From positions 64,344 through 81,083 of IMG/VR virus record IMGVR_UViG_3300031867_000033: a stretch of 16,740 nt of DNA; one strand, 5' to 3'. A model generated the notes under the pieces. The model did no database searches, was not told where the DNA came from, and was given only the letters and a program-made list of their open reading frames with translations. Positions 1,791 to 16,740 of this stretch are shown piece by piece; the stretch's first letter is position 1, and every line of letters starts with the position of its first letter. The position numbers and the translations under genes are program-made. Origin of the DNA: a virus (lineage: Duplodnaviria; Heunggongvirae; Uroviricota; Caudoviricetes).

Positions 1791-2177
1791 TTAAAATTCT
1801 TCTTCCCAGGTCTTCATCTCATTTACTATCTACTTAATATAAGAGTTACCTTTTAACTTCTTATACTACTCAAATAAAGACAGAATATTTTCTTTCTCAT
1901 AATGAGGAATTTTTTTCTAATCCTTATACTTTATATATATATGAGTAATAGTGTTACGTATTAAAGCCTAGTCAGTAATATCGCTCTAATCTAATCTCTT
2001 CTCTATTTTATCAAGCTAAACTACTATTCCTTGATTCGCCGCCGTACTCTCATCTCTTATAGTTTTTCTAAACCATTCCTTGGGTTTCTTGGTTATAACC
2101 CCAACAAAAGTTATAATTGTTAAGATAACTCCAAGCACAGCCCCTATTGCCTCAACTATAGCTAAAATTCCCATCAT
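1791..2177 (-). CDS. Small membrane protein, putative holin-like family (N-terminal TM helix, C-terminal Y-x-x-L-x-G-N motif); code 15
   Basis: 128 aa MMGILAIVEAIGAVLGVILTIITFVGVITKKPKEW...LFEQYKKLKGNSYIKQIVNEMKTWEEEF. ATGA overlap with the upstream gene, GGGGTG RBS, 6 in-frame TAG, ends TAA. The holin assignment is by family resemblance only. Confidence 0.6.
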
Positions 2178-2578
2178 CTCACCCCTTTTTCTATAAGATT
2201 TATATTATGATTTGGTGTCTTAACAATAAACTCCGGTGTGTTAAAAATTTTCTAAAGGGTAAGATTTTCAAGTTCCCAATAAGGAATACGAATTAAGGAA
2301 ATTTTATTTTTAAGACAAAATTTATTTTTACGTATATCATACTCCTTCTGCCGGCGAAACGCAATAAGGGACTTATGGAAATATGGAACGTAGGTAAAAT
2401 GTTGACGCCCATCTAACTCTAGAAGAACCCAAAGCTAGCCATTACGGTAAATAGCGAAATCAAATCGTAAGTAATCTTTGCCTCCTTTTAATCCCTAAAA
2501 AGAAATTTCTTGTTTAAACTAAATGCCACCTCGCCTTAATAAATTCGCAACCTTAATCTCGCCCTTAGAATGCTTCAT
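2174..2578 (-). CDS. PD-(D/E)XK endonuclease, DUF559/Vsr-like; code 15
   Basis: 134 aa: HSKGEIKVANLL, LRFDFAI, LELDGRQH, YDIRKNKFCLKNKISLIRIPYW. TAATG overlap with the upstream gene; 4 in-frame TAG; ends TGA. Confidence 0.75.
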
Positions 2579-3357
2579 TACTAATCATCTCTTCGCCGCG
2601 GTGGTTTAGAAGGTTTTCTACAAGGCCCCTTAGGTATCGGAACTGGATAAACTGGAATTACTTGCTATGCCGGTACATGATAAGGCTTAACCTTTTGAGG
2701 TTCACAATGATAAGTAGATACATGAAGATAATCTTCATTCAGATTATCAAATGCTCCTCGAATAGCTGTAGTTTTATTGCGTTCAAAAAATTTACAATGT
2801 AGAGAAACTGAGAATGGTGTCGTGTTGATAACCTCTACGTCAGTTCTTTTGTTCTCTTCCAACTCAGTTCTCCAAGTAGCAAGAATTCCTTGAATGGTTT
2901 CAACTGAATCAGGTTTTAGTTCATACTAAACTCCATAATAAAGTTCTTTTCCTATTGAAACTTCAAACTTTTCAAATTCAGTTGAATAATTAAAAACAAA
3001 CATTACATAAAAATCCTCTATTTTATAAAGCAATTTAACCCTATTTTCACTAGAAAATTTTGCAGTTAAAAATTCTCCCACTATGGTCTAATCTTCTTTC
3101 TTCGGTACTATATTAACTTCCTATGGAAAGATTGAATTATCAGAAAAATCATATCCAGTAAATCCATCATCATTAAGAACTATTTCTCTATCTTCCTGCG
3201 GCGTACCTAGTACATTCTATATAAGTGTAGCAACTTTTCTATAATCATCCTAAAACTAACATACATCTCGTTTAGAACACTCCAAGCAGCGAATATCTAC
3301 TAGAGTATGAGAAGGATCTATTGCGATATTAATTGGGTTTAAATAAAGTCGGTCCAA
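2578..3357 (-). CDS. Hypothetical protein, 259 aa, with CxxC-x4-C near the N terminus and a Pro-rich basic tail; code 15
   Basis: RBS GAGGTG then TTG at 3357. Open to TAA at 2578 with 8 TAG read as Gln. Contains the track ORF 2665..2862 in frame. Confidence 0.72.
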
Positions 3358-3374
3358 GATATTCACCTCATTTT

Positions 3375-3409
3375 AAAAAAATAAAGAGGAAAATTTTTTC
3401 CTCTTTATT
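3375..3409 (-). terminator. Intrinsic terminator after the DNA ligase gene
   Basis: 13-bp stem AATAAAGAGGAAA/TTTCCTCTTTATT (3380-3409) followed by a T-run on the minus strand. Confidence 0.75.
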
Positions 3410-3442
3410 AAGTAGAATTTTTTTTAAGTTATATCTAAAGAC

Positions 3443-4564
3443 TTAGTTTGATTCTATCTGTGACCATTCACAATCTTCAGGTCGCTTATCGGTTCTCCTT
3501 TCTAAAATTTTACCATGACGAAGTGAATAGTGTCCTTCAATTTTTTCCACTTGCATTGCACTCAAAGCATAGACTTGTCCTACCCACTTATCTGGCTCTT
3601 GAACAATTCCTCTCTTCATCTCATCAGATACTCCACTAATATACGCTATATGTTCAGGCTTTCCATCTTTCATTACAGAAAAAGATAACGCACCGGCGTA
3701 GCCAAGATAAAATGGTTTAGTTACTGGAGTAATAGGAGCACCATCGGTATATTCAGCGAAATGATTCCCAATAGGCAATCTCTCTCCAGACTTTAGATTT
3801 ATATAATATTCCCAAGACTCCAAATTCTTTCCAGTATAATCACGTGTAGGCGGCTTATAATCTCCATCAAGAAATGCATCAATTGTATCAGTTAGCTCCT
3901 TCTTTAGTTTCAGAGATAGTCTAGCAGTCCTTTTTCCGCACGTGTATGGGGCAGTATTTTTCTGAATTACAATACCTTCTTGCCCCGCTGCAATAACATC
4001 AAGATAAAGTTCCCAAAGTTCTTCTCCTCTTTTATATTCCGCTACTTCAACTGGACCCTCAAACTTAATATTTTTTAAATACTCAATTCTCTTTTCAATA
4101 GCAGTATTTACAAGAACTTCTCCTGCCCAAGCTAGACAATCAAAACAATAAAAATGAAGAGGTGTACTAGCTTGTCTTTCCAGACTCTTGTCTTTTAAAC
4201 AATTAAGAATTGAAGTTGTTTTACGGCTTCCTTCATCTCCAAACTTATAGATTTCACCAAGAAGAACAGTTCCATTAGGAAGATATGAAAACTCTTCTGT
4301 AATAGACGGAATCCACTCAGCTTTATCTGCATAAGTTTTATTTACATTGGGAGTTCGGCTACGCAGATGAAAATTGCCAGTTTCATCTCGGATAATCATC
4401 GCCCATACACCATCAATTTTTCTCGAGCCTGTGTATTCTCCGCTCATTACCATATTTTTCGCTTCTTCACGCTTACGTTCTGTACTATAGGACTTAGGGT
4501 GTGTCCAATACTTCATTGCATTAAAAGAATCCCAAAAATCAATTCCTGAAATCACAATATTCAT
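3443..4564 (-). CDS. lig: ATP-dependent DNA ligase (373 aa)
   Basis: Nucleotidyltransferase motifs I (RKIDG), III (LGE), IIIa (FDCL), IV (QEGIVIQK), V (LKLK), plus a C-terminal OB-fold-like region ending LRHGKILERRTDK. No TAG; ends TAA. Confidence 0.9.
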   Translation of the reverse strand: MNIVISGIDFWDSFNAMKYWTHPKSYSTERKREEAKNMVMSGEYTGSRKIDGVWAMIIRDETGNFHLRSRTPNVNKTYADKAEWIPSITEEFSYLPNGTVLLGEIYKFGDEGSRKTTSILNCLKDKSLERQASTPLHFYCFDCLAWAGEVLVNTAIEKRIEYLKNIKFEGPVEVAEYKRGEELWELYLDVIAAGQEGIVIQKNTAPYTCGKRTARLSLKLKKELTDTIDAFLDGDYKPPTRDYTGKNLESWEYYINLKSGERLPIGNHFAEYTDGAPITPVTKPFYLGYAGALSFSVMKDGKPEHIAYISGVSDEMKRGIVQEPDKWVGQVYALSAMQVEKIEGHYSLRHGKILERRTDKRPEDCEWSQIESN

Positions 4565-4753
4565 TTATTCTTCCTCCTTATAAGCCGCAGTTTCATATTC
4601 ATAAGTTTTACTTATTGTTGAATCGAACCATTCTAAAGGAGGCTCAAATTCAAAGATTTTCTCTCCTGTTCTTCTATCATAAATAGAAACTAAGTCAAGT
4701 TTCACTAACTCAAGATTCTTCATTAACTCTTCTATTGTTTCTTTATCATTCAT
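4565..4753 (-). CDS. Hypothetical acidic protein (62 aa)
   Basis: AAGGAGG RBS, first gene after the promoter at 4783-4811; its TAA abuts the ligase ATG. Confidence 0.7.
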   Translation of the reverse strand: MNDKETIEELMKNLELVKLDLVSIYDRRTGEKIFEFEPPLEWFDSTISKTYEYETAAYKEEE

Positions 4754-4782
4754 TTATATTTCCTCCTTTATTTTCTATAATA

Positions 4783-4811
4783 ATTATATCAAAAATTATT
4801 TAAAAATGCAA
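4783..4811 (-). promoter_or_regulatory. Strong sigma70-type promoter (TTGCAT-17-TATAAT), class A repeat copy
   Basis: -35 at 4806-4811, -10 at 4783-4788. 4769-4817 matches the 49-bp promoter repeat at 10264/11390 with 4 mismatches. Confidence 0.85.
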
Positions 4812-4834
4812 ATATTTTATTAAAATTTTTAACT

Positions 4835-4913
4835 TACAATGCACCGCCTGTCCAAAAATTTGGACTCGCGGCGCGTTGTAAAAGAAAGCGCCACGGATGA
4901 TACCGCGGCGCAA
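4835..4913. repeat. Cluster of GC-rich GCGCCGC-motif copies forming two imperfect hairpins
   Basis: Inverted repeat TACAATGCACCGCCTGTCCA / TGGACTCGCGGCGCGTTGTA (4835-4880), then GCGCCACGG-ATGATA-CCGCGGCGC. The 18-mer GGATGATACCGCGGCGCA (4895-4912) is identical to 11577-11594. Confidence 0.65.
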
Positions 4914-4920
4914 TATAGAA

Positions 4921-5100
4921 TTAAAATTCTAGGTATCCAGCATTTATAGTAATTGCAGAATCGTTTTTCCTTTCAAATTCTTCCTTTGTAATAAACTCAA
5001 CTAAAGCTTCCGAAGGAATAACGATTTCATTTCCTCTTTGTTCGACACTCTCCGAAGTGATTCTAAAATATCTTCCTTCTGCTTCAAAACACAGTGTCAT
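4921..5100 (-). CDS. Hypothetical protein (59 aa), missed by the ORF track
   Basis: ATG directly follows the TAA of the GIY-YIG gene. MTLCFEAEGRYFRITSESVEQRGNEIVIPSEALVEFITKEEFERKNDSAITINAGYLEF; ends TAA. Confidence 0.6.
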   Translation of the reverse strand: MTLCFEAEGRYFRITSESVEQRGNEIVIPSEALVEFITKEEFERKNDSAITINAGYLEF

Positions 5101-6201
5101 TTAACTCCCTCCTTTGGTTCCATTATAACCCCAGTTCTAAGAATCATAGAACTCAATAAAATACTTTTCTTTTTCATTAAGCTCTTCTGGCTTACAAGTA
5201 GTAATAACTTCAAAAGTAAAATTCTCTGGCCCCGTCTCCCACATTTCCTCATATAACTTATTTCTAGTTGCTGGTTCTGCACGAACTCCTCTACGAACAT
5301 GAGCTCGCCATCTTTCAGAAAACTTTTGTTTAGTCTATCCAATATAGGACTTTCCATTTTGAATGTTCGTTATCTTATAAATTCCTACTCCTTGCGCATC
5401 TGTTGACACAACACGACCAATCATTTGAGAAAAAGGATTTTTATAATAATTCTCCCATATTAATTTATAAAGAATTGTTGGGGAATTTAATGTTTCTGCG
5501 ACTTTTCTTAATTTCTATATATCTTCCCTATCTTGTTCTTTAAGCTAAATTTTATAAAATTCCACTTGCTACTTCTTTTCCTCATCTGCTTTAAAACGAG
5601 CAATAATTTCTTTTTGTTTTTCCTCATAAGCTTTAATTTCTTTATCTAAAGCCTCCTTTTTTAAATTAATGCTCGTATTATAGTTAAAAAAATCTGTATC
5701 AAGTTCCTCCTTCTTCTCCTTATAATCTCCCTAAATTGCATTAAGAAAGCTCTAAAACCTAGCCTATTCCTCTAAAATTTTCGCCGTATTCTCTGCTTCT
5801 CTTTCACGTTGCGCCGCAGTATCAAGCTCCTTATAATGTTCAAGCCTTTCTTCAAACTATTCCTAAGATTGCTTAATTCGTGCATCAATAGTTCTTTGAA
5901 AATCTTTTTCCTACTAATTTAAAGCTTCAAGTTTTCTTTTTGTTTCTCCTTCTTCAAACTAAATCTATTCCTTTGCTGCAACTCTATAATTTTCAACTTC
6001 TTCTTCTATTTCTTCTTTTATTTCTTTTTCATATGCATTTTTCTTAGCTTTGATCTAACCCATAGCTTCAAGTTCAGCAATATTAAACTAATTAATATCA
6101 AACTAATGCTTTTTATGATAATGATCTGCAAGAGTCAAAATAATATTAACCGCTGAATAGATAAAGAGTAGAATATAGCTTATAATAAAAAATATATTCA
6201 T
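5101..6201 (-). CDS. Membrane-anchored coiled-coil protein with C-terminal GIY-YIG nuclease domain (366 aa); code 15
   Basis: GGAGG RBS; hydrophobic N terminus (NIFFIISYILLFIYSAVNIILTL); long E/K/Q-rich coiled coil; then GIYKITNIQNGKSYIGQT...ERWRAH...LNEKEKYFIEFYDSQNWGYN. About 17 in-frame TAG, including the Q of YIGQT. Confidence 0.85.
5809..5825 (+). repeat. Dispersed 17-bp motif copy (TTGCGCCGCAGTATCAA), intragenic
   Basis: Matches consensus YT(G/T)CGCCGC-NN-YAYCAW; lies inside the GIY-YIG gene. Confidence 0.7.
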
Positions 6202-6214
6202 ATAACCTCCTTAT

Positions 6215-6889
6215 TTATATATAATCTGTATAAATTTTCTGTCCACAACTACATTCAACATTTTTAACTAAACCCAATGAGTCACAATAAACTTCACAAA
6301 TAGGTTTATGTACATTATCATTATTATTTTGTATATGTTTTACAAAGCCCTCCATAATTTTTTGAACTTCTTCTGACGTAAACATATTATTAATTTTTCC
6401 ATTCAGTTTTCTATTTTGTTCTTTTAATTCCTCTATTTCTTTATTCTTTTGTTCAAATATTTTGTCATTAGTAAGCTCTTTTAATACTTCATTATCTTCA
6501 TTTATTTTACAAAAGCTTTCATACATATTAATTAAAAACTCAATTATATTAAAAAATTTTTTATCATTAGAAGAATAATTCCATATACCTTCATGTAAAT
6601 CTCTTTCGTTATTCTTGTATTTTGAAAGAATATTATTATATTTTTCTTGTCGTTCCTTTCTCCTATTTACATATTCTGGGTCTCTTTTTAATATTTTTTC
6701 CATAACACGTTTTCTAGCTTCTTTTTGATGTTGCGGCGGCAAAGTGTTTTCAATATTATTCAAAATTTCATTAATTTGTTCTTTCGGAATGTCAGCATAA
6801 TCATCAAACACAGAAAGTTTAGCTCTCATTCCTCTTACGGGGCTGCTTTCTTCTTCCTTTGTTAATCTCTCTAACACGTCTTGAGCCAT
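6215..6889 (-). CDS. Hypothetical protein (224 aa) with coiled coil and C-terminal Cys motif (CxCG)
   Basis: GGAGG 7 nt before ATG at 6889 (alternative start 6829). No TAG in 10 Gln codons; ends TAA. Confidence 0.72.
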   Translation of the reverse strand: MAQDVLERLTKEEESSPVRGMRAKLSVFDDYADIPKEQINEILNNIENTLPPQHQKEARKRVMEKILKRDPEYVNRRKERQEKYNNILSKYKNNERDLHEGIWNYSSNDKKFFNIIEFLINMYESFCKINEDNEVLKELTNDKIFEQKNKEIEELKEQNRKLNGKINNMFTSEEVQKIMEGFVKHIQNNNDNVHKPICEVYCDSLGLVKNVECSCGQKIYTDYI

Positions 6890-7376
6890 TATAATCCTCC
6901 CTCATTAATTCAAAAATTATTTCATCATGAATTTTCCCATCCATTAAAACTGCTTTTTGATGTAATATTCCTACTTCTTTACCACCATAATCTCTACAAA
7001 AATGTCTGTATCCTTCCAATATTGGATTATCACGATAGCACATCCATTCAATTCGATTAAGATTATATTTATTAAATATATCATCAATAGCCTTTAATAT
7101 ATCTCTTCCAAAAATAAGTGATGGTGCTGCGGCGCAACGAACAATATAGAATCCATTAACACTTCGGCTAATCCAATCTATTTCATACCCAAGACAACCA
7201 ACTATATTATCTTCTGAATCAACAGAAACAAATTGATGATTCCATCTATTATCATTAGGATATGGCTCGATCCTCATTCCAGTTCCGCTACAAGCTCGTT
7301 GAATGTCAATGTCATACTAATGTTCAAACCACCAATTATTAATTTCTTCCTCATAAAGTTTCGCATTCTTTAACAC
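6819..7376 (-). CDS. GNAT (RimJ/RimL-like) acetyltransferase, 185 aa; true start upstream of the track ORF (code 15)
   Basis: AAGGAGG RBS then GTG at 7376 (MLKNAKLYEEEI...). One TAG at 7317-7319. GNAT-like segments FVSVDSEDNIVGCLGY and DNPILEGYRHFCRDYGGKEVG...DGKIHDEIIFEL. Confidence 0.72.
7121..7137 (-). repeat. Dispersed 17-bp motif copy (TTGCGCCGCAGCACCAT), intragenic
   Basis: Matches consensus; lies inside the GNAT gene (encodes RCAAAPS). Confidence 0.7.
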
Positions 7377-8085
7377 TTATTACTTCCTCCTTCTTTGGAT
7401 AACGTCCACAACTATATTTCTCATTACAATAACCTAATCTCTGACATTTAGGAATTAGCATATGCTCTTCTTCAATTAACCAATACCATTCATCTGAATA
7501 AATCTTCAAAGCGTCAATAATCTCATGCATTAAGTCTCTATATTCGTGATAAGCACGAGTACATAATCTTTGCTCGCACATATTAATAAGTTCTCTAAGT
7601 CCAATTCTAACAATAACCTTAGTATTATAATTAAGTGGTAAGAGTCCACTAGCATCTTCTTTTGATATACCAAGCTCTTCCAACTTTTTTATAGACTCTT
7701 TAATATTATCCATTGCATCTAAATAAATCTTTTTCGCCGCCTCATTATCCATAATTGACTTAGGAGTAGTAAAATTAAAATCCCCATACTGAATATAACG
7801 AGTTGACGCTTGCAATCTTGTAACGGAGATAATATGGGTATAAAATTCACGAATACATTTAGCTGACCATCCATCGAGTATCATGTAAATTTGTGGATAT
7901 TCTAATGCTCGCCAATGTCCAGAACGATAGCACTCAATTCCTCTTTTAAAATTCTTCTCGTGGTCATTCACATCAGCATTCCAGCATGCTCCTGCAGCAT
8001 ATCCGCTTAATGTCAATGGTTCATCAGTTGTTTCCGAAAGTATTTGTATCTTACCTTTTATTTGATTCCAACGTCTAGCCAGCAT
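7351..8085 (-). CDS. thyX: Flavin-dependent thymidylate synthase ThyX
   Basis: GHWRALEY, REFYTH...RLQASTRY (variant of the RHRx7-8S signature region), LLPLNYNT, RELINMCEQRLCTRAYHEYR. No TAG. Confidence 0.9.
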   Translation of the reverse strand: MLARRWNQIKGKIQILSETTDEPLTLSGYAAGACWNADVNDHEKNFKRGIECYRSGHWRALEYPQIYMILDGWSAKCIREFYTHIISVTRLQASTRYIQYGDFNFTTPKSIMDNEAAKKIYLDAMDNIKESIKKLEELGISKEDASGLLPLNYNTKVIVRIGLRELINMCEQRLCTRAYHEYRDLMHEIIDALKIYSDEWYWLIEEEHMLIPKCQRLGYCNEKYSCGRYPKKEEVISVKECETL

Positions 8086-8306: not shown

Positions 8307-8419
8307 TCAGAAACCTCCTTAATTAAATAGATAATAAGCCAAATAGCAAGAACGATTGTATTAGAAATTATTTGTCGCTCAATTTTCTCCTTATCCATAT
8401 CTTTAATAAAGTTTTTCAC
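8303..8419 (-). CDS. Small single-TM peptide (38 aa)
   Basis: GGAGG RBS, GTG start, MKNFIKDMDKEKIERQIISNTIVLAIWLIIYLIKEVSE; ATGA overlap with the next gene. Confidence 0.5.
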   Translation of the reverse strand: MKNFIKDMDKEKIERQIISNTIVLAIWLIIYLIKEVSE

Positions 8420-8420
8420 C

Positions 8421-8993
8421 TTAAAATTCCTCCATTCCTTTAAAAAAAATTTCATCATCAATTAATCTTGGTACTTCTGTATAATCAACCGGGTAAAAAT
8501 CCCAAGTAGATAAGCTTAAATTCAGAATCTAATCTCTATAAATTTCGCCTTCTTTTAGAAGCTAATTCTCTATTGCAGCACTTTCTGCCATAGCAATATA
8601 ATTTCTTTCACCAAGCCAAAGCTAAATATTAGAAGAATTAGTTGCAATTATAACATTTGCTTTTTCTCCATTAATTGTTCCTACAACAAAACCATCAAGA
8701 GAACGCGCTCTCTAAGCTCCCATATCTTTCCAAAAATCTTCAATTTTATAAAGCGGCTAATCTTCTAAATCAACAATTTCCCATTTTGCTTTGATTTGAG
8801 ACATTAAACTTTTAGTTGATTCAAAATCACCAACACTTGTTTCCCCAAAAACTATTAAGTAGTCATCTTCTTCAACTATTAAATTAATTCTATCAATAAC
8901 CATTTGATTATATTCCTAAATTGTCATTTTCTAATGTTGCGCCGCGACACCATCAAACAATTTCATATCTGCCGCAATAAAAGTCTTATCCAA
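8421..8993 (-). CDS. Degenerate calcineurin-like metallophosphoesterase homolog (190 aa); code 15
   Basis: GGAGGGAGG RBS, TTG start. FIAADMKLF, EYNQMVIDRINLIVEEDDYLIVFGE and LNLSLSTWDFYPVDY follow the spacing of small phage phosphoesterases (xFTSDxH, EMNExLIxxWNxxVxxxDxVYxLGD, NVGVDxWxYxPV), but metal ligands are changed. 7 TAG; ends TAA. Confidence 0.65.
8937..8953 (+). repeat. Dispersed 17-bp motif copy (TTGCGCCGCGACACCAT), intragenic
   Basis: Matches consensus. 8941-8957 is also the exact reverse complement of 16582-16598 in the endolysin gene. Confidence 0.7.
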
Positions 8994-10244: not shown

Positions 10245-10263
10245 TTATATTTTCCTTTCACTT

Positions 10264-10312
10264 TATTTTCTATAATAATTATATAATAAATTTTTTAAAA
10301 TTGCAAATATTT
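10264..10312 (-). repeat. 49-bp promoter repeat, copy 1 (TTGCAA-17-TATAAT plus leader TATTATAGAAAATA)
   Basis: Base-for-base identical to 11390-11438. -35 at 10301-10306, -10 at 10278-10283. Confidence 0.9.
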
Positions 10313-10332
10313 AAAAGATTTTTAAATCTACG

Positions 10333-10374
10333 TTGCGCCGCCATATCATAAACCTTGCTTCGCCGCACCATCAA
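10333..10374 (+). repeat. Tandem pair of GC-rich motif copies (TTGCGCCGCCATATCAT at 10333-10349; CTTCGCCGCACCATCAA at 10358-10374)
   Basis: Same 25-bp spacing and arrangement as the pair at 11444-11460 / 11469-11485. Confidence 0.75.
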
Positions 10375-10462
10375 CCTTAGCCTGTACTACGATATGCTCG
10401 CCCACATCAAACATTTCATTATACTTAGCCTTAAGTCTTGATATATCTACATATTTATTCAT
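10346..10462 (-). pseudogene. Truncated 5' copy of the RNA ligase gene (38 aa)
   Basis: GAAAGGAG RBS; MNKYVDISRLKAKYNEMFDVGEHIVVQAKVDGAAKQGL. 26/30 residues identical to the ligase N terminus (YVDISRLKAKYSEMFDVGEHIVAQSKLDGA); homology ends just after motif I. Confidence 0.85.
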
Positions 10463-10482
10463 TTATTAAAGCTCCTTTCAAC

Positions 10483-10833: not shown

Positions 10834-10844
10834 ATGAACCTCCT

Positions 10845-11372
10845 TTAAATTCTATTCATTAAATCACAACATTTTTCTTTAGTTTCAATTCTATATTCCT
10901 CTTTAAAAAGAGAATCAATAATATTATTTACTTCTTCGTGAGACTTCTTAAAAATAGCGACGAATAAAGGAAATAAGTCTCTTATATCACTAAAAAGACA
11001 ATAATATTCTCCATTATAAGAGAATGAAGAAGTATAACCTATTTGTTCAAATAAAAACGTCCAACCATTTGGACTAATACCAGCTCCTTCTTCGTTTAAT
11101 ATTTGGTTTTTAAGATATGTTAAAGAATGATTATTCTTTTCTCGTTCCTCAATCGCCCTATCCATATTATCAAAATCTTCTTTTGTTGAAGAACGAACAA
11201 ATTCCAACTGATTATCATGCCACCAAGCACTAGTTCCACCACTTTTAAGGAAACGAAGTTCATAGCCAGAAGAAACTTCGATAATTACAGCAAGTTGTCC
11301 TATACTAGGATCTGTCTTTTCATTCCAAAAACCTTTAATTACTTTTACGACATCTCCCATTTTATATTTCAT
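10845..11372 (-). CDS. Hypothetical protein with N-terminal SH3/KOW-like beta segment (about 175 aa)
   Basis: Likely start MKYKMGDVVKV at 11372 after the AGAAGGT RBS (track start 11390 is in frame); no TAG. Confidence 0.72.
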   Translation of the reverse strand: MKYKMGDVVKVIKGFWNEKTDPSIGQLAVIIEVSSGYELRFLKSGGTSAWWHDNQLEFVRSSTKEDFDNMDRAIEEREKNNHSLTYLKNQILNEEGAGISPNGWTFLFEQIGYTSSFSYNGEYYCLFSDIRDLFPLFVAIFKKSHEEVNNIIDSLFKEEYRIETKEKCCDLMNRI

Positions 11373-11389
11373 TATATTACCTTCTTTCA

Positions 11390-11438
11390 TATTTTCTATA
11401 ATAATTATATAATAAATTTTTTAAAATTGCAAATATTT
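11390..11438 (-). promoter_or_regulatory. 49-bp promoter repeat, copy 2 (TTGCAA-17-TATAAT)
   Basis: -35 at 11427-11432, -10 at 11404-11409; identical to 10264-10312. Confidence 0.9.
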
Positions 11439-11443
11439 TTATA

Positions 11444-11595
11444 CTGCGCCGCGGTACCATAAGACTTACTTCGCCGCGCTACCAAACTTTTAGACACATC
11501 TATTAGAAATTCTACATTAAGAAAATTTCAAAGGGCGCCGGCACATTATAGATAAAGCATCATAAAATAAAGGTATGGATGATACCGCGGCGCAT
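11444..11595. repeat. 152-bp element bounded by inverted copies of the GC-rich motif, at the divergent transcription point
   Basis: TGCGCCGCGGTACCAT (11445-11460) and ATGATACCGCGGCGCA (11579-11594) are reverse complements at 15/16 positions. Internal partial copies at 11469-11485 and near 11535. Confidence 0.75.
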
Positions 11596-11716
11596 TGTAG
11601 ATTTTAAACAAAATTTTAAAAGTAAATTTGTTTAAAACGTAGATTTTCTTTTTCTTATTAATTTTCTTTTAAAATAAAACTTTTAAATTCCCAACTTTAA
11701 AAACGAGGTGATTAAA

Positions 11717-11944
11717 ATGTATAGTTATAAAGAGTATAATGAACCAATTCAAATTTTAATTAAGTTAATGCATAGAGATTATCCTAATGGATTTGAGTTA
11801 AGAATCAATGGATTTGGTGCAGAATTGGTTAATAATCAAATGGTTCATACTTATATGAATGATGAAATAATGAAAGAATATTGTAGTGGTGGAAACTTAT
11901 CAATGGAAGAAATAATGAGTAATTTAAAAGATATGGGTTATTAA
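11717..11944 (+). CDS. Hypothetical protein, paralog 1 of a tandem pair (75 aa)
   Basis: GAGGTG RBS then ATG at 11717; 24/40 N-terminal residues identical to the next gene. Confidence 0.8.
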   Translation: MYSYKEYNEPIQILIKLMHRDYPNGFELRINGFGAELVNNQMVHTYMNDEIMKEYCSGGNLSMEEIMSNLKDMGY

Positions 11945-11981
11945 ATATTTTAAATCTTAGTTTAAAATGAGGCGATGTGTA

Positions 11982-12206
11982 ATGCATACATATGAAGAAT
12001 ATAATAAACCAATTCAAGAACTTATTAAAATTATGGAAAATGACTATCCTCATGATTTTATATTAGAGATAGGTAGTTTTGGAGCGGAATTAAAATCAAA
12101 TATTAGCGTTAGAACTTTTTTAAAAGATAATAATAGATTAGAGAATAATATAGATTGGATTGGACTTTTAAAAAAGGTTTTCAATGAGAATGAGAAAGAC
12201 AGTTGA
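11982..12206 (+). CDS. Hypothetical protein, paralog 2 of a tandem pair (74 aa)
   Basis: GAGG RBS then ATG at 11982; MHTYEEYNKPIQELIKIMENDYPHDFILEIGSFGAEL. Confidence 0.8.
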   Translation: MHTYEEYNKPIQELIKIMENDYPHDFILEIGSFGAELKSNISVRTFLKDNNRLENNIDWIGLLKKVFNENEKDS

Positions 12207-12230
12207 TATTACTCAACTGTCTTTTATTTT
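12195..12230. terminator. Intrinsic terminator at the convergence point, possibly bidirectional
   Basis: 12-bp stem AAAGACAGTTGA/TCAACTGTCTTT (12195-12206, 12213-12224), loop TATTAC, followed by TATTTT on the plus strand. Confidence 0.8.
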
Positions 12231-12331
12231 ATTCTTCTGAACTAATAATTATCTGTCTTTCACAGTTTTTTTCAGTGATTCAATAAATTATTCGATATAC
12301 ATTATTATATAAAAAGCTAATGATTAATTTC

Positions 12332-13126
12332 TCACTGATAATAGAAATAATTTTGGTTGCCATCTCCCCACCAAGAGTTAGCTTCATCGAAATCATAAGG
12401 ATTAGCCAAATAATAATTAACTGCATCATAACATTCCTGCGTAGGTGCACAATTTCCCGGCCAATAACCAGTAAACTGTCCAGGTGCAATCAATACATCA
12501 TAAACCGTATTCGGGAATCTTGAGTCGTAAACTCTATTCATTACTGCGGCAGCAATATGAGCCTTATCATAAAGACTAATCCAGTCACTTCCAGCTTCAT
12601 GCCAAACTATTTCTGCAAGCAACTGGTATGAATAATTATCAATTTCAATATTTGGGTTTTCATCAATAAATTCTGTAGTGGTTGTTGTCTCTTCAATTGG
12701 TTTTTCTACGACAATCCAGGATGATGTCTCTTCTATATCACTCACAGGTGCATCAATCTTTATCTGAGAAGTAATTGCCTCTGAAGCTTTTGTAGTAGTA
12801 GTTATGGTAGGATCTATATTAGAACTATCAACATCAATGTTAGTTTCAACAGGAATTTTATAAGTATTGTCTCCCTTTTTATCCTCAATCGAAATTAAAT
12901 TCTCTACTGAACTAGTCTCTATTATAAGTTCAAATGAAGTATCATCTGATATACTAGATTCATCTATATTTGTATTTGAACTTTCCACCTCCGTTGTGGC
13001 TTCTATTATAGAATTTAAGGGTGATACAGAACTAGTGCTTCTATGATATGTCGCTGGTTTAGTTCCACAACTTACAAGTGCCGTGGCACAGAATAGAGAT
13101 AAAAATATAGTCTTTAAATTCTTCAT
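12332..13126 (-). CDS. Lipoprotein with Ser/Thr/Glu-rich linker and C-terminal SleB-like cell-wall hydrolase (Hydrolase_2) domain
   Basis: Signal peptide with lipobox LVSC (Cys20); LLAEIVWHEAG, AAAVMNRV, FPNTVYDVLIAPGQF. No TAG. Confidence 0.85.
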   Translation of the reverse strand: MKNLKTIFLSLFCATALVSCGTKPATYHRSTSSVSPLNSIIEATTEVESSNTNIDESSISDDTSFELIIETSSVENLISIEDKKGDNTYKIPVETNIDVDSSNIDPTITTTTKASEAITSQIKIDAPVSDIEETSSWIVVEKPIEETTTTTEFIDENPNIEIDNYSYQLLAEIVWHEAGSDWISLYDKAHIAAAVMNRVYDSRFPNTVYDVLIAPGQFTGYWPGNCAPTQECYDAVNYYLANPYDFDEANSWWGDGNQNYFYYQ

Positions 13127-13131
13127 TGGAA

Positions 13132-13602
13132 TTATTCCTCCTTAATACTAAATAATAAAATTAATAAAGTTCCATTCTAATAATAAGCTAAATACCCATT
13201 AATATTAAATAATCTTACTGGAAAGAAATTACAAACAATTTCATAATCTTCATCTATACAGCTTTCTTTAATTTGCTCTTTAATTTCTTCCTAATTAAAA
13301 TTAAGTCTTCCAACCTAATTACTAATAATTGCTAATGCTCTATTAAAAACATTAAATGGTTCTGTTAAAGCAATTGATTTCATAAATTCAATAATAGGAC
13401 AATTTGCGGCAGATAAACGTGCTTTACAATCCCAACCCCTTTTCTTAATGTTTAAATCTTTCATTACTTGTCCATAAAGAAAATCTTTTGCTCCATAACT
13501 TAAATTAATCCATTGTGGACAAGTCTCCTCTAAATACTAATGAAAAGGTTTAAGAATTTCAATTTTTATCTCTTCATCCTAATAAATAATATAAGTCTCC
13601 AT
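13132..13602 (-). CDS. Hypothetical protein (156 aa); code 15
   Basis: TAATG coupling to the helicase stop. METYIIYQDEEIKIEILKPF...LLILLFSIKEE; 5 TAG; ends TAA. Confidence 0.7.
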
Positions 13603-14714
13603 TAGAATTCAATTAACTCCCCATAAGCTCGTTCAATTTGTCTATTAATCTTAAAGTTCCTATTTGGCTCTTTAAGTTTCCCTTCTTCTTTCTTTAAGGC
13701 TGGACACCACCAAAGATTTGTTTCAGCTCTTGTTGCAGCGACATAAGCAATCCTTCTTTCTTCTTTATTATAAGTTAACGCACCAACGACAATTACATTA
13801 GGTGATTCAAGACCTTTTGCCTAATGAATAGTCATAACTTTAACTGTATTTTCTGCCATTAAACCTTCCATTTCTTCGATACTAAGCTCTGAACGTTTAA
13901 AAGTCGTATTGGGAATTTCTTTTTCTTTAAGCATTTCCATTATTGAATAGACGTCTCTATTAGTTCTAGCTATAATAAACCAAGAACCCCAGTTACCAGA
14001 GACTTCTAATTCTTCAAGAGCCTCTGGAAATCTACAACGTTCAATGAGACCATTCTTTGTTTTTCTTGGAATTGTTTTAGGACTTAAAGGTTCTGTTCCA
14101 TTTAGAAAACCCTCTGCAAAGTCGACTATCTCAGGAGTATTACGATAATTTTCTACAAGGAAATATTTTGTATAAGTTGGGTCTTCATACATCTCTCTTA
14201 AATATTTATCAGTGGCCCCTTTAAAGCCGTAAATTGCTTGTCGATCATCTCCTGTCCAATACTCATTATTCTTCGATAGATAAGTTAAAAAGTTAAATTC
14301 CAAATCACCTAAATCCTGACACTCATCAATGAATAAATAAGAAATGGGTTTTAGTTTATCCCTAGGAATCGTCATTGCTCGTTCAATAATTCTATCAAAC
14401 TTCTCTTCTCTTATATACTATTCTGTATCAAGTCCATTAAAAGTACAAAGCTTATTAGCATAAGAATGAATCGTTCCAATAAACGCTTTTTCTCCTAGCT
14501 TTCCCAATCTAGAATACATCTCACTTGCTGCCTAATTGGTGAACGTAATGGCCACTATATCCTCGGGTTTACACCAGCCCTATTCTATTACATAACGAAT
14601 TCTTTCGGTAAGTACTCTACTTTTTCCTGCCGCAGCACAAGCTAGGCATAGGATTCGTGAATTTTGTGCTTGTACGACTTTCTTCTAACGTATGTTTAGA
14701 TTTATTTCACTCAT
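13602..14714 (-). CDS. Compact UvrD/Rep/PcrA-like superfamily 1A helicase (370 aa); code 15
   Basis: AGGAGG RBS; Q motif LNIRQ (Q=TAG, codon 10), Walker A ACAAAGKS, AITFTNQAASEM, GTIHS, Walker B IDECQD, GDDRQAIYGFKGA, LVENYRN, MTIHQAKGLE, YVAATRA. 5 TAG. Confidence 0.92.
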
Positions 14715-14760
14715 TTACAATCCTCCTAATTTTTAATATAACATTTTCATTTATAATATT

Positions 14761-14789
14761 ATTATATCAAAAAATTTAAGGGAAATCAA
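14761..14789 (-). promoter_or_regulatory. sigma70-type promoter (TTGATT-17-TATAAT, extended -10 TG) with -35 inside a hairpin
   Basis: -35 at 14784-14789, -10 at 14761-14766. Confidence 0.75.
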
Positions 14790-14806
14790 ATATTTTGACT
14801 TCCCTT
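14769..14806 (-). terminator. Probable terminator hairpin overlapping the helicase promoter
   Basis: AAGGGAA-A-TCAAA-TAT-TTTGA-C-TTCCCTT (14778-14806) starting at the upstream TAA. The T-run is offset by AAA, so it may be weak. Confidence 0.5.
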
Positions 14807-15156
14807 TACTCTATATTTAAATATTTTTTTAATTCTTCAATCTCACTAACATTTTCATCGTCATTAATAAAAATTACTACGTCTGTAACGTCAATTACAT
14901 TTTTATAAGTCTAATATTGTTCCATAGTAATCGCATAATGCTCTTTATCCTTTTCTCCAATATGAAGATAGATAGTTCTTTTATTAGACTTCATTTCTCC
15001 AGAATTAACCTATAATGTTATTGGATAAAACTTATTATTATTAGATATTATTGGACTTGTTTCTTTTATTGCTTCTTCGTTATTTTCATAAAGATTTTTA
15101 AAATTAACGATCTATCCAGAAGTATTTAAATCAACCGTATAAATTATCGTCGCCAT
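14806..15156 (-). CDS. Hypothetical protein (116 aa); code 15
   Basis: AAGAGG RBS; MATIIYTVDLNTSGQIVNF...; 3 TAG; ends TAA. Confidence 0.7.
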
Positions 15157-15484
15157 TTTCTTCCTCTTTCTTCACTTTATCTAATGCATAAATTGTATAA
15201 CGACTAAATACTTCCTTTAATGCATCGAACCCTTTCATGGAAACAAAAGCAATTATAAATCCAAATAAAACGCCAGTTATAATTGGTCCTAAAGTCGGTC
15301 CCTAAGTTGCTACTGTGGCTCCTACTGTTAAAAATAAAGAAACAAAAACAGTTAAAACCTAAGTCGGAAATTCCTTTGGTAATATTGCCTTAAGAACTTC
15401 TGTTATAATTGTAGTTAATGCCGCAAGAATTCCTAAGTCAGTTAAAGAAATTCCAGCTGTTAATCCCAGTAATCCTTCTATCAT
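15131..15484 (-). CDS. Putative holin (three hydrophobic segments, charged C-terminal tail; 117 aa); code 15
   Basis: GAGGTGAGG RBS; LGILAALTTIITEVLK, PTQVLTVFVSLFLTVGA, IITGVLFGFIIAFVSMKGFDALKE; 2 TAG; downstream of the endolysin. Confidence 0.68.
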
Positions 15485-15489
15485 TAACC

Positions 15490-16296
15490 TCACCTCTCTT
15501 TAAATCGAAAGTCGATATTTAATATATTAATATTATAAGGAATCTATAAATAAGAATTTCTCCACTACAGTGCGCCGCGACCCTATAACGTTGGTCTAAA
15601 CTCCATTATATAATCCTCGGAGTTAAATTCAAATTGGAATCCATCTATCTCTCCAAATGGTAAACCGGCACATTGTCCATTAGAGGCCCAGGCTGACCAG
15701 GCTTGATTTTTATTATGAACTCGATAAGTAATATTTCCAATATTTGTTTTTAATTTTATTCTATTAAAACTATGAATAGAATCCGGAAGCTACCAACTTC
15801 CATTAATTAAAACTTCAATCTCAATCTTTGGCTGAATTTTCTTTTTAACTTCGGGCATTTCAAAAGCAACTTTCTCTATTTTTTGCTTATCTGCCTTTTC
15901 AAAAAGTTTTTGCTAGAAACTTTCTGAAACTCTATAAAAGAAAATTCTATTCTGAGCAATATTAAACTTTTTTGCTAAGGCAATAATTAAAGAAATTGCT
16001 TTCTTTTCTACTCCTTTTCTAGTTCCACAAATTCCAATCTTTAAAACCTTATGATATGACGGTATAGCCTCCCATATTGATAAATGGTCAACGTAATAAT
16101 CAATAGTTAAAGGTTCCATTAAACCTAAAGTCTGTTGCCTCATCATATACTCTGCTAATGTTGTATTTGATTTAACAATTAAATCGGGCAACTAGTAAAT
16201 ATATAAATTAAAAGGAGCCGACCCTTGCGGCTCCCTCCCATTAACCTAATATATAGGAAAACCGAGGTCTTTATTAATTATTGCACGAAGTGGCAT
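15490..16296 (-). CDS. Degenerate amidase_2-like domain fused to a ChW-like cell-wall-binding segment (268 aa); code 15
   Basis: TAATG overlap with the endolysin stop. DYYVDHLSIWEAIP...KIGICG...AISLIIALAKKFNIAQNRIFFY mirrors amidase_2 spacing without the Zn-binding His residues. ITYRVHNKNQAWSAWASNGQCAG...IDGFQ resembles a ChW repeat. 7 TAG; ends TGA. Confidence 0.62.
16206..16234 (-). terminator. Terminator-like hairpin inside the 15490..16296 reading frame
   Basis: GGAGCCG-CAAGGGT-CGGCTCC (16234-16214) followed by TTTTAATTT. Confidence 0.6.
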
Positions 16297-16740
16297 TATT
16301 TTACGTAATATTCTCCATCAGAAGTTTTAAATAAGCACCACCCTGAGGGAATTTTTCCCCAGACTTCCCCATTAGTTAATTCCTTAACTTCCAAAACTGA
16401 AACCTTGGTTCCTTTCTTAAGAACTGCTTTGGACTAGTTATAAGAATTAGCCTTTGCATTTTCAGTTAACTAGCTCCTAGACTTCCAAGAATATGATGTG
16501 CCAGCACCTGAACGAACCTTAAGGTCTACCTAAAGTGTATAGACTTTGCCAATAGTATAGATTGATTTCTTAGTAGAAGTATTTGATGGTGTCGCGGCAC
16601 TTTGTGAAGGAACAGTTTCAGCTTTAATTTCTTCCTTAGTCTCAGTTTTAGCTTCTTCCTTAGTTTCCTCCTTATTTAAAGTAGGAATTGAATAAAAGTA
16701 GTTCATGTCTACTCCACTACTAATTGAATTTAACTTATAA
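16296..16740 (-). CDS. Endolysin C-terminal part (end of a probable GH25 domain, linker, SH3-like cell-wall-binding domain); 5' end outside the window; code 15
   Basis: ISSGVDMNYF resembles the end of a GH25 domain; an E/K/T/S linker follows; then YTLQVDLKVRSGAGTSY...VLKKGTKVSVLE...WGKIPSGWC. 3 TAG in the visible part; ends TAA. Confidence 0.78.

What the first reader, a model, noticed from the sequence alone, without database searches (positions are those of the whole stretch)
2034..16602. Dispersed GC-rich 17-bp motif YT(G/T)CGCCGC-NN-YAYCAW, inside and between genes, in both orientations
Seen: near-perfect copies at 4897-4913(-), 5809-5825(+), 7121-7137(-), 8937-8953(+), 10333-10349(+), 11444-11460(+) and 11579-11595(-). 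Partial copies at 6725-6741, 7732-7748, 10358-10374, 11469-11485, 15570-15586, 16586-16602 and 2034-2050. By hand I count about 31 GCGGC/GCCGC pentamers (16 vs 15 by strand), where roughly 2-3 are expected at about 30% GC, and 9 GCGCCGC heptamers where well under 1 is expected. Intragenic copies are read in different frames (TAAQ, RCAAAP, DGVAAQ, SAATP), so selection appears to act on the DNA rather than the protein. Inference: a genome-wide binding or recombination site. Candidates are a phage nucleoid/segregation protein site (compare the GC-rich B. subtilis RacA ram sites), a Chi-like site (B. subtilis Chi AGCGG shares the GCGG core), or a regulator of the class A promoters, all three of which have a motif cluster upstream.
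Basis: partly seen in the sequence, partly recalled or inferred. Interest (0 to 1): 0.88.

Follow-up and report, generated by a model that had tools for sequence, protein, structure and literature searches.

The report
GC-rich boundary motif of recoded phage
A 23-base GC-rich word, repeated about 85 times in an AT-rich rumen phage that reads TAG as glutamine, mostly sits at the borders between early gene units, where it forms hairpins just upstream of a standard promoter; related phages carry their own versions of the word even inside genes, so an unknown factor probably also reads it on the DNA.

Summary
In detail: coordinates, counts and enrichment all hold. The motif is longer than reported: TAYAAT-GCGCCGC-GGTAYCAT-AA, 85 copies above the shuffle threshold on the 81-kb contig. 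The phage reads TAG as glutamine, and on the recoded gene map 70 of the 85 copies lie outside genes of 100 aa or more.

Copies pointing with the genes are the 5' arm and loop of intrinsic terminators. Inverted pairs can form long hairpins. Fourteen of 31 copies of one conserved sigma-70-type promoter have the motif upstream, always in divergent orientation, mostly 28-31 nt from the -35. This matches the PeSL terminator-promoter cassettes of T4-type phages. Breaks of synteny, including a ligase stub, fall on motif copies.

This does not explain everything. Codon-shuffling leaves a clear excess inside genes (8 vs 1.2). Genic copies persist in relatives while the amino acids change. Hairpin arms do not co-vary. 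Two complete relatives carry their own GCCGC-centred words, mostly inside genes (55 vs 3.3), and one is strand-polar. DNA-level selection is therefore supported.

RacA/ParB-like, Chi-like, RAYT, integrase and methylase readings found no support. The scan has seen similar hairpin-promoter cassettes in other large gut phages.

Verdict: a new variant of a known kind, with an unexplained clade-wide component.

The parts
4895..4919 (-). Strong motif copy (PWM 37.8). Its GC core and the following bases are the 5' arm and loop of an intrinsic terminator (stem-loop 4911-4888, then a T-run) at the end of the unit holding the GIY-YIG gene and a 59-aa ORF.
   Evidence: best terminator-like site of the window, 9 pairs of which 8 G-C; kept at the same place in L169 and L170
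4833..4882 (.). Inverted pair: a copy on the - strand (4858-4882) facing a degenerate copy on the + strand (4833-4857, core GCACCGC). They form a second hairpin directly upstream of the promoter. Synteny with contig L144 ends at 4873, inside it.
   Evidence: break of synteny
4783..4812 (-). Class A promoter (-35 TTGCAT, 17-nt spacer with TGn, -10 TATAAT) for the 62-aa ORF 4565-4753 and the DNA ligase gene.
5803..5827 (+). Genic copy, antisense, inside the GIY-YIG endonuclease gene 5101-6201 (17 in-frame TAG). Read as D-T-A-A-Q.
   Evidence: kept in L169, L170 and L171, with one change towards the consensus
7119..7143 (-). Genic copy, sense, inside ORF 6819-7376. Read as R-C-A-A-A-P.
   Evidence: kept in three relatives, with the A-to-G change giving CCGCGG
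8931..8955 (+). Genic copy, antisense, near the N terminus of ORF 8421-8966 (7 TAG). Read as D-G-V-A-A-Q.
   Evidence: the CGCGGCGCA core is invariant in three relatives, while the residues change (G-V to A-T) and the DNA moves towards the consensus
10327..10376 (+). Cluster of one strong and two weak direct copies, divergent from and 29-54 nt upstream of the promoter at 10278-10306.
10350..10462 (-). 5' stub of an RNA ligase allele of the type found in relative L170. Homology to the full gene ends at ...GATGGTGC, exactly where the motif copy 10358-10374 begins. This is the junction of a cassette replacement.
   Evidence: (note e1-5386406)
10278..10306 (-). Class A promoter (TTGCAA, N17, TATAAT) for the 70-aa ORF 10032-10244 and the RNA ligase gene 9076-10017.
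11438..11487 (+). Two direct copies 25 nt apart (strong, then weak), divergent from and 14 and 39 nt upstream of the promoter at 11404-11432.
   Evidence: both cores kept in L169, both mutated in L170
11404..11432 (-). Class A promoter (TTGCAA, N17, TATAAT) for gene 10845-11390.
11530..11550 (-). Variant copy with the palindromic core GCCGGCGC preceded by TATAAT. It belongs to a second related word family (21 GCGCCGGC on the contig).
11577..11601 (-). Best-scoring copy of the window (PWM 39.7), pointing with the genes and followed by a short hairpin and a T-run. Identical over 23 nt in L169 and L170.
15564..15588 (+). Genic copy, antisense, in ORF 15490-16296. No CGCCGC/GCGGCG core is listed near the expected place in L169.
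16584..16608 (-). Genic copy, sense (core GTGCCGC), in ORF 16296-16706. Read as S-A-A-T-P. L169 has a near-consensus copy at about the corresponding place (S-A-A-V-S); the correspondence is inferred from shared flanking bases, not from an alignment.
14761..14789 (-). Class A promoter of the other subtype (-35 TTGATT), with no motif upstream. This is the counter-example within the window.

Best explanation
The motif is the signature sequence of a boundary cassette between early transcription units. SHOWN: it is a roughly 23-nt asymmetric element lying mostly between genes. When it points with the genes, it is the 5' arm and loop of hairpin-plus-T-run terminators. As inverted pairs it can form 15-30-bp hairpins. 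In 14 of 31 cases it sits directly upstream of, and divergent from, one highly conserved sigma-70-type promoter. INFERRED: on the RNA the hairpins terminate or insulate transcription coming from the unit upstream, so each cassette restarts transcription at its own promoter. On the DNA, the many near-identical copies act as patches of homology where related phages exchange, gain or lose gene cassettes. This is the arrangement described as PeSL in T4-type phages. A second layer is not explained by this. The GCCGC-centred core is kept as a word on the DNA itself, also inside genes and in lineage-specific versions across the clade, which implies a sequence-specific reader that has not been identified.
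For: Location: 70 of 85 PWM hits lie outside genes of 100 aa or more, which cover 72% of the contig. Terminators: the best terminator-like site of the window is built on the motif, and similar sites occur at contig 11116, 13901, 29340 and 59314. Their 3' arms are not motif copies but complements with G-U wobbles. Inverted pairs: 18 convergent pairs, cores identical in 108 of 126 positions. In long arm-to-arm pairings, G-U on the sense RNA occurs 24 times against A-C 6 times. Promoter link: 31 copies of one promoter, all on the gene strand; 14 have the motif within 60 nt upstream, 14 of 14 in the same divergent orientation and 8 of 14 at 28-31 nt. The motif goes with -35 hexamers TTGC.. or TTGT.. 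and never with TTGA... Promoters without it abut the stop codon of the gene before. Recombination: synteny with L144 ends at 4873 inside a motif hairpin, with L169 and L170 at 4881 and with L170 at 10365. A ligase stub ends exactly at a motif copy. The motif-promoter-70-aa-gene unit is present in the window and L171 and absent in L170. Contigs of other runs pile up on the promoter cassettes and diverge at their edges. Literature: PeSLs are composite terminator/promoter sequences with a stem-loop consensus that differs between lineages, and they are linked to indels (PMC4122927; PMC2839356).
Against: A plain structural role does not need a conserved loop or flank, yet GGTAYCAT and TAYAAT are conserved where they are unpaired. 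The three variable bases after the core do not co-vary between the arms of inverted pairs (23 matched, 7 wobble, 24 mismatched), so the arms behave as independent copies of a word. About seven promoter-proximal copies have no obvious partner (read by eye). Other terminators in the window do not use the motif. Genic copies exceed the codon-shuffled expectation and persist in relatives. In relative G003 the related word is mostly genic. The number of synteny breaks on the motif is small and not clearly above what any intergenic sequence would give. No RNA data exist to show termination. My sense-versus-antisense folding test failed its control and carries no weight.
Confidence: 0.45

Rival explanations
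1. The motif is first of all the duplex-DNA binding site of a sequence-specific protein, phage-encoded or host. The protein would control the subclass of class A promoters with weak -35 hexamers, as an upstream activator or a roadblock/insulator, and also occupy sites elsewhere. Hairpins would then be a by-product of placing two sites head to head.
For: The conserved unit is 17-23 nt, asymmetric and conserved across its whole length, including parts that are loop or unpaired. Arms of inverted pairs do not co-vary. Orientation is fixed in 14 of 14 cases, and the preferred spacing puts the site centre near -70, only at promoters whose -35 departs most from TTGACA. Genic copies keep the pattern while residues change. 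Relatives carry lineage-specific versions, two of them palindromic as for dimeric binders (G002 GTGCCGCGGCAC, G003 T-CGCSGCG-A). In G003 the word lies within 70 nt upstream of 7 of 44 strong promoters; my rough estimate of the chance expectation is about 1.
Against: No candidate protein was identified. Fixed spacing and orientation are equally expected if the cassettes are copies of one ancestor. In terminators the partner arm has clearly evolved to pair with the motif, so structure is selected there. Early promoters must fire before any phage protein is made. 17 of 31 promoters do without it. In L170 both promoter-proximal cores are mutated at an otherwise conserved locus.
Confidence: 0.3
2. 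The motif is the core of a divergent, antisense promoter: TAYAAT as the -10, the GC block as the discriminator, and a start in the following G's. It would fire back into the unit that has just ended, as in the 'antisense promoter-hairpin' boundary cassettes this scan has noted in other large gut and rumen phages.
For: TAYAAT keeps the A2 and T6 of a -10 hexamer in about 34 of 38 non-genic copies. It is present in several terminator-type copies where pairing does not require it. From my own memory, not checked here, TATAAT plus a GCGCC... discriminator is the layout of stringently controlled rRNA promoters. Promoter-proximal copies are always divergent from the class A promoter. Similar cassettes with perfect backward promoters were reported by earlier agents in other genomes.
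Against: There is no conserved -35: information content upstream of TAYAAT is at most 0.3 bit per position. The palindromic TTGCAA lies 21-23 nt away (by eye), too far for sigma-70. TAYAAT pairs with ATTGTA of the other arm, which alone would conserve it. Genic copies lack TAYAAT. No RNA data exist.
Confidence: 0.1
3. The word is a polar recombination or replication signal read along the DNA, Chi-like. It would protect or direct processing of linear or concatemeric phage DNA by a helicase-nuclease and make hot spots of exchange.
For: There is excess in genes and between genes after codon control in all four records. Genic sites are spread evenly along genes, and spacing is Poisson-like at about one per 2-3 kb in G003. 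In G003 the central base of the palindrome is on one DNA strand in 43 of 55 genic sites, whichever strand the gene is on. Junctions of exchange fall on copies. Versions are lineage-specific, as Chi differs between hosts.
Against: In this genome 17-23 nt are conserved, against 5-8 nt for every known Chi. 82% of copies are outside genes. Two of the three versions are palindromes, which have no polarity. No PDDEXK_1 nuclease is encoded in either complete relative. The host is unknown, so host enrichment is untested.
Confidence: 0.08
4. There is no dedicated function. The excess would be a molecular drive: biased repair tied to a methyltransferase, as proposed for HIP1 palindromes of cyanobacteria, or ectopic gene conversion from the many intergenic copies pulling similar sequences towards the consensus.
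For: Changes in genic copies between relatives tend towards the consensus. The words are GC-rich and palindromic in two lineages. The real ligase gene has a weak look-alike at 9925-9949, and the stub junction shows that such look-alikes do recombine with true copies.
Against: No C5-methyltransferase is found in four records, two of them complete. The excess of 10-30 fold for 7-8-mers is, from my own knowledge, far above what biased repair is known to give. Gene conversion from about 15 intergenic copies cannot easily make 55 genic ones in G003.
Confidence: 0.05
5. The elements are mobile palindromes moved by an enzyme: REP/BIME with a RAYT transposase, or attC-like hairpins with an integron-type integrase.
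For: They are GC-rich imperfect palindromes with a conserved 5' flank, lie in intergenic DNA at gene ends, occur as inverted pairs and number dozens of copies.
Against: There is no Y1 transposase and no tyrosine recombinase in any of the four records; the controls rang.
Confidence: 0.02

Closest known systems
PeSL (promoter-early stem-loop) cassettes of T4-type phages (Arbiol et al. 2010, PMC2839356; Comeau et al. 2014, PMC4122927)
   Same: It is a composite of a stem-loop/terminator and a near-consensus sigma-70 early promoter. Dozens of dispersed copies lie between small early genes. The stem-loop consensus differs between phage lineages. Copies sit at indels and replacements between close relatives.
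   Different: The host phage is not shown to be T4-like (no Gp23 hit, though the control was silent) and uses TAG=Gln. The conserved part extends beyond the stem into the loop and a -10-like flank. Arms do not co-vary. Many copies are solitary. The core word is also in excess inside genes, which is not reported for PeSLs.
Antisense promoter-hairpin boundary cassettes noted by this scan in other large gut and rumen phages (e1-1615445, e1-1841161, e1-1615987, e1-1614228; not in print as far as those notes say)
   Same: GC-rich hairpins with a shared sequence sit at the borders of early operons, on the back side of a conserved host-type promoter cassette, in uncultured phages of about 140-180 kb from gut or rumen.
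   Different: Those cassettes are described with a perfect backward promoter. Here only the -10-like TAYAAT is present, without a -35 at a workable distance. The genic excess and lineage-specific words were not part of those notes.
REP/BIME elements of enterobacteria
   Same: These are GC-rich imperfect palindromes at the 3' ends of transcription units, often in inverted pairs. From my own knowledge, they act as mRNA stabilisers or terminators and as protein-binding sites.
   Different: No RAYT transposase is encoded. The elements here are coupled to a promoter and occur in a phage.
HIP1 and other highly iterated palindromes of cyanobacteria (from my own knowledge: Elhai 2015)
   Same: They are short GC-rich palindromic words in large excess both inside and between genes, with lineage-specific variants and unknown function.
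   Different: HIPs go with cognate methyltransferases, and none is found here. The version in this genome is a 17-23-nt asymmetric word concentrated between genes.
   Same: They are over-represented GC-rich words on an AT-rich background. Polarity is seen in one relative (Chi-like). Two relatives have GC-core palindromes with A/T flanks (ram- or NBS-like).
   Different: The length is 17-23 nt and the location is mostly intergenic. No ParB_N and no RecB-type nuclease is encoded. There is no clustering near one locus as for ram sites.

Membership tests
PeSL-type terminator-promoter cassette | A stem-loop able to act as a terminator lies immediately upstream of an early sigma-70-type promoter. 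| tested here: met
   14 of 31 promoters have the motif hairpin or arm within 60 nt upstream. One motif hairpin scores as the best terminator-like site of the window. Function on RNA was not measured.
PeSL-type terminator-promoter cassette | There are many dispersed, well-conserved copies in intergenic DNA between small early genes. | tested here: met
   85 PWM hits, 70 of them non-genic; 31 promoter copies on 81 kb.
PeSL-type terminator-promoter cassette | Copies coincide with insertions, deletions and replacements between close relatives. | tested here: inconclusive
   Breaks fall at 4873, 4881 and 10365, plus the ligase-stub junction and a cassette indel. There are too few independent events to show an excess over other intergenic DNA.
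PeSL-type terminator-promoter cassette | The host genome is a T4-type myovirus. | tested here: inconclusive
   There is no Gp23 (PF07068) match in four records, but the control genomes hold no phage, so the search proves nothing.
REP/BIME with RAYT | A cognate Y1 (HUH) transposase is present. | tested here: not met
   PF01797 is absent from G000-G003; the control rang in 6 genomes.
Integron-like attC cassettes | A tyrosine recombinase acts on hairpin sites. | tested here: not met
   PF00589 is absent from G000-G003; the control rang in 14 of 14.
Chi site | A short (5-8 nt) asymmetric word is in excess throughout the genome, genes included. | tested here: not met
   The excess is real. However, the conserved unit is 17-23 nt and 82% of copies are non-genic.
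Chi site | Strand polarity follows replication or DNA ends, and the word is read by a RecBCD/AddAB-type enzyme. | tested here: inconclusive
   Polarity is seen in G003 only (43 of 55). This contig has nearly all genes on one strand, so polarity cannot be separated from transcription. No PDDEXK_1 nuclease is encoded in the phages. The host enzyme and genome are not available.
ParB-parS / Noc-NBS / RacA-ram type centromere or anchoring sites | A cognate ParB-family (or RacA) protein binds palindromic sites. | tested here: not met
   There is no ParB_N domain in G000-G003; the control rang in 11. The motif of this genome is not a palindrome. A RacA-type MerR-like protein was not searched for.
HIP-type iterated palindrome with methyltransferase | A cognate DNA methyltransferase has its site inside the word. 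| tested here: not met
   There is no C5-methyltransferase (PF00145) in G000-G003; the control rang in 9. N4/N6 methylases and host enzymes were not tested.

The most novel reading that the evidence does not exclude
A whole clade of TAG-recoded rumen phages of about 160-180 kb keeps a lineage-specific word centred on GCCGC/GCGGC. The versions are TGCGCCGCGGTAYCAT here, GTGCCGCGGCAC in G002 and T-CGCSGCG-A in G003. The word occurs about once per 1-3 kb over the whole genome, against codon usage, and is strand-polar in at least one member. This would be the target of an unidentified, fast-evolving sequence reader that gives the phage DNA a 'self' signature or directs recombination or replication. 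The terminator-promoter cassettes would then be only the most visible place where the word is reused.
Probability: 0.25. Interest if true: 0.8.

Novelty: new variant of a known kind. Interest (0 to 1): 0.55.

Why it matters
If the cassette reading holds, the modular-shuffling device known from T4-type phages also operates in an unrelated, stop-codon-recoded group of large rumen phages. It also gives a practical key for annotating their early transcription units: promoter, terminator and unit borders can be read from the sequence. The larger question is the second layer. A GC-rich word is held in place inside genes, differs between sister lineages, and is polar in one of them. That pattern points to a sequence-specific reader of phage DNA for which I found no described counterpart in phages. 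The three natural specificities offer a ready-made test set for finding the protein by co-variation.

Tried and rejected
1. Sense-versus-antisense folding energy of motif regions. The sense RNA folds better in 29 of 33 clusters, but motif-free genic and intergenic controls show the same bias. The test is rejected as uninformative.
2. Exact 17-mer scans. The viral collection gave 4 singletons. The metagenome scan was swamped by an unrelated repeat of an organism of about 45% GC, and only L011, L080, L108 and L118 were relatives.
3. The first relatives found through the 698-aa protein (L017-L020, 33% identity) have no GCGCCGC at all. GenBank phages gave no DNA match and only remote protein matches.
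4. RNA evidence: no RNA run holds the phage, so no transcript ends or starts could be read.
5. Rfam: no family at the gathering threshold in the window.
6. Enzyme or partner searches in four records, all negative: C5-methylase, Y1 transposase, ParB_N, PDDEXK_1 nuclease and tyrosine recombinase. The Gp23 search was uninformative.
7. A canonical sigma-70 promoter built on TAYAAT: no -35 at 16-18 nt beyond what T-rich DNA gives.
8. Position of genic copies within genes: uniform, with no bias to either end. Conservation of genic copies against the gene-wide rate is only modest: 6 changes versus about 14 expected for L169, and 7 versus 7 for L171.
9. Host identification for a Chi test was not attempted, because no reliable host link was at hand.

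Full report
WHAT IS THERE. The window is the last 16.7 kb of an 81,083-bp IMG/VR virus contig, about 49% complete by CheckV, 31% G+C. The sequence is found mainly in bovine gut metagenomes. On the whole contig the strict 17-mer occurs 13 times and its reversed control never.

THE GENE MAP CHANGES. Reading TAG as a sense codon raises the share of the contig covered by ORFs of 100 aa or more from 57% to 78%. In the window it produces a compact row of minus-strand genes. Pfam confirms this: the anaerobic ribonucleotide reductase, a UvrD-type helicase and a GIY-YIG endonuclease are whole only if TAG is read through (3, 5 and 17 TAGs). Other genes in the window are a DNA ligase, ThyX, an RNA ligase and a cell-wall hydrolase. 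With this map, 70 of 85 motif copies lie outside genes of 100 aa or more, although such genes cover 72% of the contig.

ANATOMY OF THE MOTIF. Aligning all copies shows a conserved unit of about 23 nt: TAYAAT, GCGCCGC, then GGTAYCAT-AA. Four settings recur.
- Copies pointing with the genes are followed by a complementary arm and a T-run, so they are intrinsic terminators. The motif supplies the 5' arm and the loop, while the 3' arm is a free complement with G-U wobbles. In the window this is 4911-4888, the best terminator-like site found.
- Two copies face each other a few to some tens of bases apart (18 convergent pairs) and could form hairpins of 15-30 pairs that include TAYAAT/ATTGTA.
- Solitary copies, or direct pairs 25 nt apart, lie just upstream of a promoter.
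- A minority lies inside genes and lacks TAYAAT.

THE PROMOTER. It has 31 copies on the contig, all pointing with the genes. Fourteen have a motif copy within 60 nt upstream of the -35. In all fourteen the nearest copy is on the opposite strand, back to back with the promoter, and in eight the distance is 28-31 nt. The motif goes only with -35 hexamers of the TTGC../TTGT.. kind and never with TTGA... Promoters without it usually abut the stop codon of the preceding gene. In the direction of transcription the order is: end of gene, hairpin(s) built from the motif, promoter, next gene.

COMPARISON WITH THE LITERATURE. This is the layout described as PeSL (promoter-early stem-loop) in T4-type phages. 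PeSLs are small composite terminator/promoter sequences whose stem-loop consensus differs between lineages, and they sit at the indels of hyperplastic regions (PMC2839356 and PMC4122927). Earlier agents of this scan reported closely similar hairpin-promoter boundary cassettes in several other large gut and rumen phages, so the kind has been seen before on other DNA.

RECOMBINATION. Several observations place junctions on motif copies.
- A 6.4-kb contig (L144) is 92% identical to window 2255-4873, then becomes unrelated inside the motif hairpin. The promoter-side arm is shared and the terminator side is different.
- Three syntenic relatives fetched through RNA-ligase homologues (L169, L170 and L171; 80-89% protein identity) lose homology at 4881 (L169 and L170), 10365 (L170) and 10312 (L171).
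The stub at 10350-10462 is the 5' end of an L170-type allele, and its homology stops at ...GATGGTGC, where the motif copy 10358-10374 begins. The full ligase gene downstream carries an L171-type 5' end.
- The unit 'motif, promoter, 70-aa gene' is present in the window and in L171 and absent in L170.
- Contigs from other runs pile up on the three promoter cassettes and diverge at their edges. A variant skipping 11443-11578, the stretch between two inverted copies, occurs in two runs.
The events are few. Since any breakpoint is likely to be intergenic, I do not claim a statistical excess.

WHAT THE CASSETTE READING DOES NOT EXPLAIN.
- The loop and the flank are conserved where they are unpaired.
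- In the 18 convergent pairs the three variable bases after the core match in 23, wobble in 7 and mismatch in 24 positions. The arms therefore behave as independent copies of a word, not as co-evolving halves of a stem.
- Shuffling synonymous codons within each gene expects 1.2 GCGCCGC in genes, and 8 are seen (maximum 4 in 200 shuffles).
- The strong genic copies at 5809, 7121 and 8937 are present in all three syntenic relatives. Some changes move towards the consensus and alter residues, for example G-V to A-T at 8937. At 16586, L169 has a near-consensus copy at what appears from its flanks to be the same place, reading S-A-A-V-S against S-A-A-T-P here. The weak partial copies are not kept, although L169 has a strong copy at the ThyX position where the window has only a remnant. 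Measured against the gene-wide rate the conservation is modest: 6 changes against about 14 expected for L169, and 7 against 7 for L171.

THE CLADE. I examined three further records.
- G001 (42 kb) has the same word as this contig.
- G002 (163.5 kb) is a complete genome with terminal repeats; its DNA ligase is 59% identical.
- G003 (180.6 kb) is also complete with terminal repeats; its DNA ligase is 54% identical.
All are TAG-recoded. Each lineage has its own top GC-rich words: TGCGCCGC(GG) plus GCGCCGGCGC here and in G001, GTGCCGCG(GCAC) in G002, and T-CGCSGCG-A plus GCCCGGGC in G003. After codon shuffling the genic excess is large: 17 against 0.5 in G002 and 55 against 3.3 in G003. An unbiased screen of all words ranks GCCGC/GCGGC as the top pentamer in G002 and G003, and second to the overlapping CGCCG in G000+G001. 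In G003 most sites are genic, evenly placed along genes and Poisson-spaced. Their central base lies on one DNA strand in 43 of 55 genic sites, whichever strand the gene is on. The word is also found within 70 nt upstream of 7 of 44 strong promoters. A DNA-level constraint on a GCCGC-centred word is thus a property of the clade. The cassettes of this genome are where the word is most concentrated.

TESTS OF NAMED CANDIDATES. The following were absent from all four records while the control genomes rang: C5-methyltransferase, Y1/RAYT transposase, ParB_N domain, PDDEXK_1 nuclease and tyrosine recombinase. The motif of this genome is not a palindrome and is three times longer than any Chi. TAYAAT looks like a -10 hexamer, but no -35 is conserved at a usable distance. 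There are no RNA data and no Rfam match. A folding-energy comparison of the two strands looked supportive but failed its control, so I discarded it.

VERDICT. My best reading (0.45) is a PeSL-like boundary cassette. The motif is the shared arm of the terminator and insulator hairpins placed before one subclass of the early promoter, and its many copies serve as homology for cassette exchange. The main rival (0.30) is that the word is primarily the duplex-DNA site of an unidentified sequence-specific protein; this would also account for the genic copies, the missing co-variation and the lineage-specific versions. The two readings are not exclusive. Smaller rivals are a divergent antisense promoter (0.10), a Chi-like polar signal (0.08), a repair or conversion drive (0.05) and enzyme-moved palindromes (0.02). 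Shown: the anatomy, positions, orientation rules, the excess after codon control, the persistence in relatives and the junctions. Inferred: termination, insulation, recombination as the mechanism, and the existence of a reader.

Noticed in passing
window 1-16740 and whole contig: TAG use is a mosaic. Neighbouring genes on the same strand have either no in-frame TAG (DNA ligase, ThyX, RNA ligase) or many (GIY-YIG endonuclease 17 in 366 codons; contig genes 46727-47791 with 16 and 41171-42196 with 10). The heaviest users include homing-endonuclease genes.
   Followed up: partly
contig-wide; window promoters at 4783-4812, 10278-10306, 11404-11432 versus 14761-14789: The conserved early promoter comes in two subtypes by its -35 hexamer. 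TTGC../TTGT.. usually has the GC motif upstream (14 of 16). TTGA../TTGG.. never does (0 of 15), and it includes the promoters of the tRNA island.
   Followed up: partly
window 11530-11550 and 21 places on the contig: A second, related word family has a palindromic core GCGCCGGCGC, often also preceded by TAYAAT. With the main motif it forms a larger composite module of roughly 120-150 nt (my estimate by eye) that recurs upstream of the promoters at contig 29197, 38863 and 75775.
   Followed up: no
G003 (L159-L168): Relative G003 has a second iterated word, GCCCGGGC: 62 copies, 38 of them intergenic, often in hairpins followed by T-runs near early promoters. It seems to play the terminator part there, while T-CGCSGCG-A is mostly genic.
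   Followed up: partly
L171:781-2766: In relative L171 the UvrD-type helicase is 661 aa instead of 370 and carries a faint intein-splicing hit, so it probably holds an intein that the window's gene (13602-14714) lacks.
   Followed up: no
L118:12998-13124 versus contig 80957-81083: A 13-kb metagenome contig ends with the exact reverse complement of the last 127 bases of this contig. It is probably the neighbouring piece of the same assembly graph, so the genome continues there. It carries the same motif and a TnpB element.
   Followed up: no
L021-L140 (metagenomes Ga0209781, Ga0209679, Ga0209364): An unrelated, very abundant repeat family of an organism of about 45% GC contains the same 17-mer inside a conserved stretch of about 70 nt (my estimate by eye). 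More than 100 contigs carry it. This looks like coincidence, but it swamped the scan.
   Followed up: no
window 11717-12206 (+): This is the only plus-strand genes of the window (two small ORFs; GC skew flips here). They have no class A promoter of their own. The inverted motif copies at 11438-11601 lie between them and the divergent minus-strand promoter, and two other runs carry a form lacking 11443-11578.
   Followed up: partly
L169:9100-10017: Relative L169 has a 305-aa gene inserted between the 116-aa gene and the RNA ligase, at the very place where the window has the ligase stub plus the 70-aa gene cassette. This is a third state of the same variable slot.
   Followed up: no
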